Shown here piece by piece: positions 17,660 to 43,860 of a DNA stretch of 64,000 nt. Each line of letters starts with the position of its first letter. The first letter of the stretch is position 1. Source of the DNA: Mobula hypostoma (Eukaryota); assembly GCF_963921235.1 (NCBI RefSeq), contig NC_086108.1:49912001-49976000 (forward strand), written 5' to 3'. Both the position numbers and the translations under genes were made by a program. Below the pieces are notes generated by a model, which was given only the letters and a program-made list of their open reading frames with translations, did not search any database and had not been told where the DNA came from.

Positions 17660-20600
17660 GTTCACTTCCAACACCACCTTCCTCCATTCCGACCAGTTCC
17701 CTTCCAGCACCACCTTCCTCCATTCCGACCAGTTCCCTTCCAAAACCACCTTCCTCCATTCTGACCAGTTCCCTCCCAACACCACCTTCCTCCATTCCGA
17801 CCAGTTCCCTCCCAACACCACCTTCCTCCATTCCGACCAGTTCCCTTCCAACACCACCTTCGTCCACTCTGACCAGTTCACCTTCACCACCACCTTCCTC
17901 CATTCCAACCAGTTCCCTCCCAACACCACCTTCCTCCATTCCAACCAGTTCCCTTCCAACACCACCTTCCTCCATTCAGACCAGTTCCCATCCAACACCA
18001 CCTTCCTCCATTCCAACCAGTTCCTTCCCAACACCACCTTCCTCCATTCCGACCAGTTCCCATCCAACACCACTTTCCTCCATTCCGACCAGTTCACCTT
18101 CACCACCACCTTCCTGCATTCCAACCAGTTCCCTCCCAACACCACCTTCCTCCATTCCAACCAGTTCCCTCCCAACACAACCTTCCTCCATTCCGACCAG
18201 TTCACCTTCACCACCACCTTCCTCCATTCCAACCAGTTCCCTCCCAACACCTTTCCTCCATTCCAACTAGTTCCCTTCCAACACCACCTTCCTCCATTCC
18301 GACCAGTTCCCATCCAACACCACCTTCCTCCATTCCGACCAGTTCACCTTCACCACCACCCTCCTCCATTCCGACCAGTTCACCTTCACCACCACCTTCC
18401 TCTATTCCGACCAGTTCCCTCCCAACACCACCTTCCTCCATTCCGACCAGTTCCCATCCAACACCACCTTCCTCAATTCCCACCAGTTCACCTTCACCAC
18501 CACCTTCTTCCATTCCGACCAGTTCCCTCCCAACACCACCTTCCTCCATTCCGACTAGTTCCCTACCAACACCACCTTCCTTCATTCCGACCAGTTTACT
18601 TCCAACACCACCTTCCTCCATTCCGACCAGTTCCCTTCCAACACCACCTTCCTCCATTCCGACCAGTTCCCACCAACACCACCTTCCTCCATTCCGACCA
18701 GTTCCCATCCAACACCACCTTCCTCTATTCCGACCAGTTCCCTCCCAACACCACCTTCCTCCATTCCGACCAGTTCACCTTCACCACCACCTTCCTCTAT
18801 TCCGACCAGTTCCCTCCCAACACCACCTTCCTCCATTCCGACCAGTTCCCATCCAACACCACCTTCCTCAATTCCCACCAGTTCACCTTCACCACCACCT
18901 TCTTCCATTCCGACCAGTTCCCTCCCAACACCACCTTCCTCCATTCCGACCAGTTCCCTTCCAACACCACCTTCCTCCATTCCGACCAGTTCACTTCCAA
19001 CACCACCTTCCTCTATTCCGACCAGTTCCCTTCCAACACCACCTTCCTCCATTCCGACCAGTTCCCACCAACACCACCTTCCTCCATTCCAACCAGTTCC
19101 CATCCAACACCACCTTCCTCCATTCCGACCAGTTCCCTCCCAACACCACCTTCCTCCATTCCGACCAGTTCCCATCCAACACCACCTTCCTCCATTCCGA
19201 CCAGTTCCCTTCCAACACCACCTTCCTCCATTCCGACCAGTTCCCTTCCAACACCACCTTCCTCCATTCCGACCAGTTCCCATCCAACACCACCTTCCTC
19301 CATTCCGACCAGTTCCCATCCAACACCACATTCCTCCATTCCAACCAGTTCCCTCCCAACACCACCTTCCTCCATTCCGACCAGTTCACCTTCACCACCA
19401 CCTTCCTCTATTCCGACCAGTTCCCTCCCAACACCACCTTCCTCCATTTCAACCAGTTCCCATCCAACACCACCTTCCTCCATTCCGACCAGTTCCCTCC
19501 CAATACCACCTTCCTCCATTCCGACCAGTTCACTTCCAACACCACCTTCCTCCATTCCGACCAGTTCACTTTCACCACCACCTTCCTCCATTCCGACCAG
19601 TTCACTTTCACCACCACCTTCCTCCATTCCGACCAGTTCCCTTCCAACACCACCTTCCTCCATTCCGACCAGTTCCCATCCAACACCACCTTCCTCCATT
19701 CCGACCAGTTCACCTTCACCACCACCTTCCTGCATTCCAACCAGTTCCCTCCCAACACCACCTTCCTCCATTCCAACCAGTTCCCTCCCAACACAACCTT
19801 CCTCCATTCCGACCAGTTCACCTTCACCACCACCTTCCTCCATTCCGACCAGTTCCCTGCCAACACCACCTTCCTCCATTCCGACCAGTTCACCTTCACC
19901 ACCACCTTCCTCCATTCCGACCAGTTCCCTCCCAACACCACCTTCCTCCATTCCAACTAGTTCCCTCCCAACACCACCTTCCTCCATTCCGATCAGTTCC
20001 CTTCCAACACCACCTTCCTCCATTCTGACCAGTTCCCATCCAACACCACCTTCCTCCATTCCGAACAGTTCCCATCCAACACTACCTTCCTGCATTCCGA
20101 CCAGTTCCCTTCCAACACCACCTTCCTCCATTCCGACCAGTTCCCATCCAACACCACCTTCCTCCATTCCGACCAGCTCCCATCCAACACCACCTTCCTC
20201 CATTCCGACCAGTTCCCTTCCCACACCACCTTACTCCATTCCAACCAGTTCACTTTCACCACCACCTTCCTCCATTCCTACCAGTTCACTTTCACCACCA
20301 CCTTCCTCCATTCCAACCAGTTCCCTCCCAACACCCCCTTCCTCCATTCCAACCAGTTCCCTCCTAACACCACCTTCCTCCATTCTGACCAGTTCCCTCC
20401 CAACACCACCTTCCTCCATTCCAACCAGTTCACTTTCACCACCACCTTCCTCCATTCCTACCAGTTCACTTTCACCACCACCTTCCTCCATTCCAACCAG
20501 TTCCCTCCCAACACCACCTTCCTCCATTCCAACCAGTTCCCTCCTAACACCACCTTCCTCCATTCTGACCAGTTCCCTCCCAACACCACCTTCCTCCATT

Positions 20601-42282: not shown

Positions 42283-43860
42283 GCAGAACCGGTCCCCACC
42301 CTCAACAATTTTTCCTTTGGTTTCTCCAGACTGAAGTGGTAGCCATGGGCACCCATGTGGGCTCCAGCTGTGCCTGCCTCTTCATTGGATATGAAGGACA
42401 GTGCATGTAGCAAGCCTTCCCTGGTATTGCTCCCAACTCTTCCTCTGCTACCTTGATGACTGCATTGGTGCTGCTTCATGCACCCATGCTGAGTTCATCA
42501 ATTACACCAACTTTGCCTCTAACTTCCACCCTGCTCTTAAATTCACTTGGTCCATTTCTGACACCTCCCTCCCCTTCCTCGATCTCTCTGTCTCCATCTC
42601 TTGAGACAAACTGTTGAACAACATCTTTTCTAAACCAACCGATTCTCACAGTTATCTTGCCTGTACCTCTTCCCTCCCTCTCTCCTGTAAAAATGCTATT
42701 CCCTCTTTGCAGTTCATTTATCTTCAATGTATCTGTTCCTGGGATACAGTTTTCCATTCAAGGATATCAGAGATGTCTGCCTTCTTCAAAGAATGGTGTT
42801 TGCTTTCTTCCACCATTGATGCTACTCTTACCCCACATCTCCCCATTTCCTGAACATCCATGCTCACCCCATCTTCTCGCCACCTTAGCAGTGATAGAGT
42901 TTCTCTTGTCCTCATCTACCACCCCATGAGCCTCCGCATCCAACACATCGTTCTCCACAACTTCCACCATCTCTGAAGGGATTCTACCACCAAACAAATC
43001 TTTATCTCCCCTCTCCTCCTACCACCACCCCCCCCCCATACTCCACTTTCCACAGGGATTGCTCCTTCCATGATTCCCTTGCCCATTCATCCCTCCCCAC
43101 TAATCTCCCTCCTGGGACTTCTCCCTGTAAGCTGCTCAAGTGTTACACCTGTCCATTCACCTCCTTCTCTCCTCCATTCAGGGCCCTAAACAGTCCTTCC
43201 AGGCGAGGCAACACATCACCCACGAATCTTCTGGGGTCATCTGTTGTGTCCGGTGCTCCCGATGTGGCCTCCTCTACAATGGTGAGACCCATAGTAAATT
43301 GAGGGGACCACTTAGTTGAGCACCTCTGCTCCATCCTCCAAATACGGAACTTCCTGGTAGCCAAACATTTTAATTCCCATTCCCATTCTAACATGTTGGT
43401 CCTTGGCCTCCTCTTGTGCCAATGTGAGGCCACCATCAGGGTTGAGGAACAACACCTGAGTAGCCTCCAACCTGATGGTATGAATATTGATTTCTCCTTC
43501 AGGTTAAAAAACAATTCCCTCCACCTTCCATCTTCTTGTATTCCCTACTCTGGCCTCTTGCCTTTTCTCAGCTGCCTATCACCTCTCCCTGGGTCCACTC
43601 TCCTTCCTTTTTTCCTATGGTCTGCTTTCCTCTCCTATCAAATCCCTTCATCTCTAGGCCTTTATCTTTCCTACCAACCTGGCTTCACCTATTATCCTCT
43701 TGCTATACTCCTTCCCTTCCCCCTACCTTTTTATTCTGGCATCATCCCCCTTCCTTTCCAGTCCTGAAGAAGGGTCCTGGCCTGAAACATTGACTGTTTA
43801 TCCATTTCCATAGATGCCGCCTGACCTGCTGAGTTCCATCAGCATTTTGTGTGTGTTACT
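42247..43860 (+). mobile_element. 5'-truncated, decayed Penelope-like element: RT, GIY-YIG endonuclease, 3' terminal repeat
   Basis: TTTLLILAEPVPTLNNFSFG, VAMGTHVGSSCACLFIGY, LFLCYLDDCIGAAS, FHPALKFTWSISDTSLPFLDLSVSI, KPTDSHSYL, RCSRCGLLYNGET, RVEEQHL..LQPDGMNIDFS; 3' part homologous to 9487-10247. Confidence 0.92.
43759..43796 (+). ncRNA. Minimal type I hammerhead ribozyme motif in the Penelope terminal repeat
   Basis: CAGTC-CTGAAGA-AGGGTCCTGGCCT-GAAAC-ATT-GACTG: stem I CAGTC/GACTG, CUGANGA and GAAA cores, stem II AGG/CCT. Confidence 0.7.

What the first reader, a model, noticed from the sequence alone, without database searches (positions are those of the whole stretch)
17660..42330. A 24.6-kb satellite apparently amplified from 36 bp of Penelope reverse-transcriptase coding sequence
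Seen: the last unit (42247-42282, gac cag ttc acc ttc acc acc acc ctc ctc att ctg) runs with no junction and in frame into gca gaa ccg gtc ccc acc ctc aac aat ttt tcc ttt ggt, giving DQFTFTTTLLILAEPVPTLNNFSFG just before the VAMGT RT motif. The frequent unit variant cattctg-accag shares cattctg with this RT sequence. The left flank of the array shows no Penelope sequence. Recalled: related elements read NQFPSTTTLLRLAELVLTLNNFSF here, matching the unit peptide DQFPSNTTFLHS. Inference: the array is ~680 copies of the 5'-most 12 codons of the truncated element, a satellite birth with its parent still attached.
Basis: partly seen in the sequence, partly recalled or inferred. Interest (0 to 1): 0.85.

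Follow-up and report, generated by a model that had tools for sequence, protein, structure and literature searches.

The report
Satellite grown from Penelope retroelement codons
A 24-kb block of about 680 copies of a 36-base unit in a ray genome matches twelve codons of the broken Penelope-like retroelement it runs into; it likely grew in place from that copy and expanded recently, a clear new case of a known way that satellite DNA arises.

Summary
Confirmed. Window 17660-42279 holds about 678 units of 36 bp plus an unclosed 200-N gap, so true length is unknown. It runs in frame into a 5'-truncated Penelope-like element with a Neptune-type linker. The commonest unit is 5 base changes from coding PNQFPSTTTLLR, which ray relatives have at this exact site (2 of 300,000 shuffles did as well). 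Ordinary family copies in two other species align across the terminal unit. Array-only letters have summed contig depth 5910 in the best-matching species, 46 in a close relative and 0 in a third, so the big expansion looks recent and lineage-restricted; 5.3-kb internal block duplications at 98.5% identity agree. Corrections: the left edge starts mid-unit, so the array is not simply the element's first 12 codons; the 'cattctg' variant is more likely CpG decay; a frameshift precedes VAMGT. Satellites from mobile-element coding parts, Penelope included, are described in print; the closest match is the squamate SINE-derived satellites. This scan noted similar arrays elsewhere in this genome and in another (unchecked). 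New member of a known kind.

The parts
17660..42279 (+). 36-bp tandem array, about 678 sequenced units, 108 distinct 36-bp variants among 652 full-length units, mean 5.6% from consensus; multi-kb higher-order block duplications
17656..17687 (+). Left edge: incomplete first unit, starting at TTC (or CAG plus 2 extra bases); no PLE sequence and no target-site duplication to its left
17688..17723 (+). First complete unit; carries the TCC-AGC haplotype found elsewhere only in the last complete unit (42208-42243)
20687..30272 (+). Youngest large internal duplication: lag 5344 bp (148 units), 98.5% identity over 4245 bp, 1284 bp exact
35700..37106 (.). Indel-rich contig end (11 of 50 units not 36 bp) followed by the 200-N gap at 36907-37106; likely assembly noise
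42244..42279 (+). Terminal (parent-attached) unit, homologous to codons PNQFPSTTTLLR of the family RT
42280..43506 (+). Broken ORF of a 5'-truncated Penelope-like element: C-terminal half of RT, linker, GIY-YIG endonuclease; several frameshifts and stops
43126..43152 (+). CX4CxxC linker motif (CKLLKCYTC), the Neptune/Nematis-type zinc-finger linker
   Evidence: definition from PMC8557442 passages
43507..43860 (+). 3' non-coding end of the element, with a hammerhead-like CTGAnGA...GAAA motif at 43764-43788 (recognised by eye from a recalled consensus; Rfam gave no hammerhead hit)
12417..12501 (-). First coding exon of an NMNAT gene (NMNAT2 by recalled sequence); its ATG lies 5.16 kb from the array's left edge

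Best explanation
The array's 36-bp unit is a decayed copy of twelve reverse-transcriptase codons of the attached, dead Penelope-like element, and the array likely grew in place in two phases: an old two-to-three-unit seed, likely made during insertion, and a likely recent expansion by multi-kilobase block duplications. Step 1 (shown): the unit is homologous to the RT codons at exactly the point where the array meets the element. Step 2 (inferred, about 45% against about 40% for rival 1): the RT slipped back 36 nt on its RNA template, recopied the stretch and then terminated; this one event would leave a partial first unit, no upstream element and units as old as the insertion. Step 3 (inferred): the seed units decayed separately and were mixed by unequal exchange or conversion, giving a few variant classes, while the edge units stayed frozen. 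Step 4 (duplications shown, timing inferred): blocks of 74-148 units were duplicated repeatedly, mostly in the lineage of this species. It has no evident function; it is most likely neutral, methylated repeat DNA.
For: Homology: 5 changes from the family 12-mer, 2 of 300,000 fixed-site shuffles; the best site over the whole protein is this site for 4 of 5 relatives tested (the skate protein P0022 gave other sites). DNA: summed contig depth in organisms B and C is 2436, 1880 and 1885 at 42250-42261 and 5703, 3539 and 3476 at 42262-42273, falling to 46, 0 and 0 in the array-only bin 42226-42237; family letters at 42277-78 are C/T and A/G, with A commonest, which fits the unit's CAT. Coding-frame signature: 9 of 12 third positions are C in the unit, and C is 45% at third positions of the element's RT against 26-31% at the others. 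Old seed: edge units differ from the terminal unit at 4-5 of 24 sites, roughly twice the copy's own decay (about two dozen majority differences in 278 bases among the 40 rows shown, a lower bound). Growth from inside: the TCC-AGC haplotype occurs only in the first and last complete units, and singleton variants are 12 of 47 in the first 50 units against 0-3 per 50 in units 50-349. Recent growth: 5344-bp lag at 98.5%; array-only depth 5910 in A against 46 in B, while family-only bins are similar (8776 against 11472).
Against: The family's DNA letters at 42244-42276 were in the cut part of the table (142 rows not shown), so I could not align a DNA consensus to the unit or look for microhomology at the unit ends. 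No low-difference ortholog contig from B or C was among the 8 pieces listed per run, so the orthologous locus was not seen directly. The tool warns that summed depth is no copy number. One run of B and one sample of C were laid (4 of 22 runs listed). No target-site duplication was found, so the 5' junction may be secondary. The edge-haplotype observation is post hoc. No whole genome was available.
Confidence: 0.85

Rival explanations
1. Same parentage, different first step: a DNA-level duplication (replication slippage or unequal exchange between short flanking repeats, the Haber-Louis model) occurred inside a longer genomic copy, and a later deletion removed the upstream part of the element and part of the first unit.
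For: No target-site duplication survives. One-sided arrays with a longer terminal unit are the usual form of SINE-derived satellites (PMC10702118 Discussion). Two unchecked scan notes from this genome describe arrays flanked by both halves of their parent. The family peptide has R at both ends of the 12-mer, a possible microhomology.
Against: Needs two events. The array consensus and the terminal unit share no coding change against the family peptide in columns 10-33, and each has two of its own, which points to a very early duplication; the numbers are small.
Confidence: 0.4
2. A pre-existing unrelated minisatellite was hit by the element, and the cDNA end annealed to the best-matching stretch, so the similarity is chance plus selection for microhomology.
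For: The unit is low in complexity (26 distinct 4-mers against a mean of 29.4 along the element; 14% of windows are as low). The free-site null is only 5 of 1500.
Against: No array on the 3' side of the element. Third-position C bias is in the RT frame, and there is no internal 6-, 9-, 12- or 18-bp periodicity (10-15 of 36 matches at lags 3-18). Organism C has the family but none of the array-only letters.
Confidence: 0.04
3. The unit is a genome-wide satellite family born at another PLE copy and spread here by recombination with the homologous element.
For: Squamate SINE-derived satellites occur at many loci per genome. The genome could not be searched.
Against: Array-only depth 5910 against 7.7 for the locus's own contig is about 770-fold, the same order as this one array (rough). 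Terminal-type variants (121 units with A at column 13) are spread through the interior. The scan index held no look-alike window (it covers only part of the genome).
Confidence: 0.08
4. The array length is inflated by mis-assembly.
For: 200-N gap and noisy contig end inside the array.
Against: Internal blocks differ by 1.5-9% and the longest exact repeat is 1284 bp, unlike a duplicated contig. Run contigs give high array depth, though that run may be the assembly's own source.
Confidence: 0.03

Closest known systems
SINE-derived satellites (sSats) of squamates, Vassetzky et al. 2023, PMC10702118 (abstract, sections 5, 17 and 19 read)
   Same: Tandem array of part of a retroelement with a longer terminal unit that runs on into the parent; single loci of up to about 950-1200 units; locus-specific subvariants; unit number varies between close relatives.
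   Different: Parent here is an autonomous-type Penelope-like element and the unit is protein-coding RT sequence of 36 bp, not 67-215 bp of a SINE; apparently one locus; host is a cartilaginous fish; multi-kb block duplications.
Satellites from TE coding regions: PROsat and Pvc 20 (LINE-1 ORF2), chicken HinfI/SCR1 (CR1 ORF2), as reviewed in PMC9659126 (passages and section 6 read)
   Same: Monomer derived from retroelement ORF sequence.
   Different: As the review describes them, those are similarities between a monomer and a TE family; here the parent copy is attached in frame. 'Penelope' does not occur in that review (0 hits) or in PMC6947457 (0 hits).
Penelope-derived satDNA as a category, PMC12692304 (one passage read)
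   Same: The review names Penelope elements among satDNA sources.
   Different: It gives no case detail in the passage seen, and I did not trace its citations, so I cannot say whether an RT-codon monomer is among them.
Retrotransposon-derived tandem repeats of Lathyrus sativus, Vondrak et al., PMC7004042 (abstract only)
   Same: Short arrays inside retroelements that occasionally expand to satellite length.
   Different: There the short arrays are part of the LTR element family and expand mainly at centromeres; here the seed looks private to one copy and lies 5 kb from a gene start.
Neptune-type EN+ Penelope-like elements, PMC8557442 (passages read)
   Same: RT followed by a CX2-5CxxC linker and C-terminal GIY-YIG; strong 5' truncation; partial tandems.
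   Different: The described partial tandems repeat the element's 3' part (pLTR), not a 36-nt internal stretch.

Membership tests
TE-derived satellite / minisatellite (sSat-like) | Head-to-tail array of one unit | tested here: met
   TRF period 36, 89% matches; 652 of 676 spacings are 36
TE-derived satellite / minisatellite (sSat-like) | Unit homologous to part of a dispersed element | tested here: met
TE-derived satellite / minisatellite (sSat-like) | Terminal unit continuous with the parent element | tested here: met
   tblastn HSP 42247-42327 at 74% to P0002 28-54
TE-derived satellite / minisatellite (sSat-like) | Array absent or shorter at the ortholog in relatives | tested here: inconclusive
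   Array-only depth 46 in B and 0 in C against 5910 in A, but no ortholog contig seen
Classical satellite DNA | Very long or multi-locus arrays in centromeric or subtelomeric heterochromatin | not testable with these tools
   No genome held; length open at the gap; neighbourhood is genic
EN+ Penelope-like element | RT followed by C-terminal GIY-YIG endonuclease in one ORF | tested here: met
   Window aligns to P0009 and P0010, which hit RVT_1 (E 9.8e-5) and GIY-YIG (E 8.1e-4), both below Pfam cut-offs; the two short window peptides hit nothing
EN+ Penelope-like element | Minimal hammerhead in the terminal repeat | tested here: inconclusive
   Motif seen by eye at 43764-43788; Rfam search gave no hammerhead
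Neptune clade | CX2-5CxxC linker between RT and EN (absent in Penelope/Poseidon) | tested here: met
   CKLLKCYTC at 43126-43152; CKRKCYTC in P0010
Neptune clade | RT phylogeny groups with Neptune rather than Nematis | not tested
   No reference set at hand
Non-LTR retrozymes (tandem PLE derivatives) | Each monomer carries a hammerhead ribozyme (abstract starts only) | tested here: not met
   The 36-bp unit is RT coding sequence with no CTGAnGA/GAAA core

The most novel reading that the evidence does not exclude
The seed was written by the Penelope-like reverse transcriptase itself, slipping back and recopying a 36-nt stretch of its template in the manner of its sister enzyme telomerase, and this ray lineage then inflates such retroelement-born seeds into arrays of tens of kilobases within a short evolutionary time. 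Reiterative copying at insertion would then be a direct source of satellite seeds in vertebrates.
Probability: 0.25. Interest if true: 0.72.

Novelty: new member of a known kind. Interest (0 to 1): 0.42.

Why it matters
It is a satellite whose parent, birthplace and growth steps can all still be read, with a close relative that seems to keep about 1% of the array. That makes seed formation, dormancy and expansion testable by comparing one locus across rays. If the other arrays noted by this scan in the same genome hold up, batoid genomes would be a good system for asking why some lineages expand TE-born repeats. Any effect on the neighbouring NMNAT gene is untested.

Tried and rejected
Whole-genome search: no genome held. 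DNA of close family copies: viral contigs pattern scan 0 hits; metagenome scan gave 17 loci, all distant (32-56% identity), not used. No second copy of this RT region in the window. Rfam over 42200-44200: 3 chance-level hits, no hammerhead. Target-site duplication: longest shared words between the flanks were 6 bases. G-quadruplex as the reason for this seed: array mean G4Hunter -0.98, 14% of windows at or beyond -1.2, but other parts of the element score higher (-2.28 near 42960), so not supported. Higher-order repeat of a hexamer: no sub-periodicity. Coding function of the array: long stop-free stretches (up to 1958 codons) follow from a stop-free unit and are no evidence of a gene. The 'cattctg' argument: columns 3-4 are CG in 410, CA in 172 and TG in 39 of 640 units, the two CpG deamination products, each on several backgrounds; 13 mis-phased units near the gap inflate some variant counts and were dropped. 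Scan look-ups by sequence, relatives, near and one by words returned nothing. Literature: searches listed no paper on an RT-codon satellite from a Penelope-like element or on such arrays in cartilaginous fish; only titles and abstract starts were seen for most, and subscription papers and supplements were not seen. A ray genome preprint (10.64898/2026.10.27.761883, passages only; bioRxiv supplements are closed) does not treat such arrays in the passages shown; PMC12910113 passages added nothing.

Full report
Observation. The array is real: period 36 from 17660 to about 42280. It contains a 200-N gap at 36907-37106, so the 682.8 copies from TRF are about 678 sequenced units and the true length is open. 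The kilobase before the gap is rich in indels (11 of 50 units are not 36 bp) and looks like contig-end noise. The last unit runs without a junction into LAEPVPTLNNFSFG; VAMGT follows in another frame.

The element. A stop-free 56-residue piece found 44 proteins among 54 candidates, the best at 76-85% identity, mostly from Hypanus sabinus and Mobula hypostoma, so the host is most likely a ray. Five of these proteins align by tblastn from 42241-42262 onwards in several frames, the longest to about 43506: RT C-half, linker and GIY-YIG. The linker CKLLKCYTC (43126-43152) fits the CX2-5CxxC motif that marks Neptune and Nematis and is absent from Penelope/Poseidon (PMC8557442, passages); I built no tree. 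The 3' end lies near 43860 by comparison with another copy in the window. A hammerhead-like motif at 43764-43788 is recognised by eye from a recalled consensus; Rfam did not score it. Minimal hammerheads are described for fish PLEs (PMC4209133, passages).

Parentage. P0002 and P0008 read RPNQFPSTTTLLRLAELVLTLNNFSF. The majority unit reads SDQFPSNTTFLH and is 5 base changes from coding PNQFPSTTTLLR; 2 of 300,000 shuffles did as well at that site. With site, rotation and strand free, 5 of 1500 base shuffles and 12 of 1500 codon shuffles reached 5 or fewer, and the best site was the junction site for 4 of 5 proteins. At DNA level I laid contigs of four runs (one of organism A, one of B, two of one sample of C) on 42226-42560 at 82% likeness. 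Family contigs in B and C cover the terminal unit with summed depths of 1880-5703 at 42250-42273. Their letters at 42277-78 are C or T and A or G, that is CGT and its CpG decay products, CAT being the array's codon. The table was cut, so the family letters at 42244-42276 were not seen.

The left edge starts at column 10 (or column 7 with two extra bases); columns 1-8 match the unit at 1 of 8 sites. The unit's TCC GAC part corresponds to P-N codons upstream of that edge, so the template once reached further than today's 5' end. Either the RT slipped back and then stopped, or a longer copy lost its 5' part later. No target-site duplication survives. The TCT-GAC variant (39 of 640) and the TCC-AAC variant (172 of 640) are the two deamination products of the CpG in TCC-GAC (410 of 640), so 'cattctg' is weak evidence, and the array has likely been methylated in the germ line (inference).

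Growth history. The first and last complete units share a TCC-AGC haplotype found nowhere else in the window (17702 and 42222); a third AGC at unit 248 lies on another background. This is post hoc but fits frozen edges and growth from inside. Edge units differ from the terminal unit at 4-5 of 24 sites, against at least about 9% decay of the copy itself (my count from the 40 rows shown), so the first duplication is about as old as the insertion (inference from small numbers). The interior is built of repeated blocks at lags of 74, 78, 83, 108 and 148 units; the 148-unit block is 98.5% identical over 4245 bp with 1284 bp exact.

Timing. In the bin that holds array-only letters (42226-42237) summed depth is 5909.9 in A, 46 in B and 0 in both C runs, while family-only bins are alike in all (8776, 11472, 9969 and 9302 at 42286-42297). 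B shares 0.42-0.44 of the sampled words of 42283-44800 against 0.73-0.82 for A, which by my rough reckoning means about 2% divergence if the sharing is orthologous; that was not shown. The simplest reading is that B keeps a short array and that the large expansion happened on A's line. Caveats: summed depth is no copy number, A may be the assembly's source, and no ortholog contig was among the pieces listed.

Known kinds. One-sided arrays that run into their parent, up to about 1200 units, are described for SINEs in squamates (PMC10702118). Monomers from LINE ORF2 are reviewed in PMC9659126, which concludes that any TE part can serve. A 2025 review names Penelope elements among satDNA sources (PMC12692304). 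The Haber-Louis slippage model is summarised in PMC6947457 (passages). My searches listed no report of a PLE RT-codon satellite or of such arrays in cartilaginous fish, within the open library only. Unchecked scan notes describe a 26/27-bp array from PLE endonuclease codons, a 33-bp array from a SINE and a 54-bp array from a retrotransposon's 5' end in this genome, and a 28-bp array from L2 RT in another genome; these are leads, not support.

Verdict. The finding is real and correctly interpreted in its core: a new, unusually legible member of a known kind. Parentage is shown; in-place growth and recent expansion are well supported inferences; the first step, RT slip-back or DNA duplication plus deletion, is open. 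Interest 0.42.

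Noticed in passing
window 12417-12501 (-): First coding exon of an NMNAT gene (PDB NMNAT1 hit E 4e-6; NMNAT2 by recalled sequence), 5.16 kb from the array's left edge, transcribed away from it.
   Followed up: partly
window 9831-10245: A second Penelope-like fragment: endonuclease end on the minus strand (9831-10112) abutting a 3' terminal piece on the plus strand (10111-10245), the inverted arrangement typical of PLE insertions; a third terminal piece lies at 9480-9574 (-). 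Both terminal pieces carry hammerhead-like motifs with CCGAAG rather than CTGAnGA.
   Followed up: partly
window 59059-62900 (-): A long LINE-like copy (CR1/L2 type by appearance, not tested) with related fragments at 16-788, 1997-2472 and 3327-4119.
   Followed up: no
window 16315-17420: Apparent Tc1-like element (inverted ends recognised by eye) interrupted by a LINE-like fragment at 16831-17333, 240 bp left of the array.
   Followed up: no
window 52737-56149 and 58424-63884: Pieces of one repeat recur on both sides of the long LINE-like copy (67-85% identity), suggesting an older element split by that insertion and a second copy nearby.
   Followed up: no
window 17658-17668 and 43853-43862: The left junction (GTGTTCACTTC) and the element's 3' junction (GTGTTACTTC) differ by one base; part of the left word belongs to the first unit, so this may be chance or a trace of a target duplication.
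   Followed up: partly
proteins P0002, P0010, P0022: Several batoid gene models named as host genes (chitinase domain protein 1, divergent kinase 1C, nicotinamide riboside kinase 1) are largely PLE or other retroelement ORF sequence, probably annotation artefacts.
   Followed up: no
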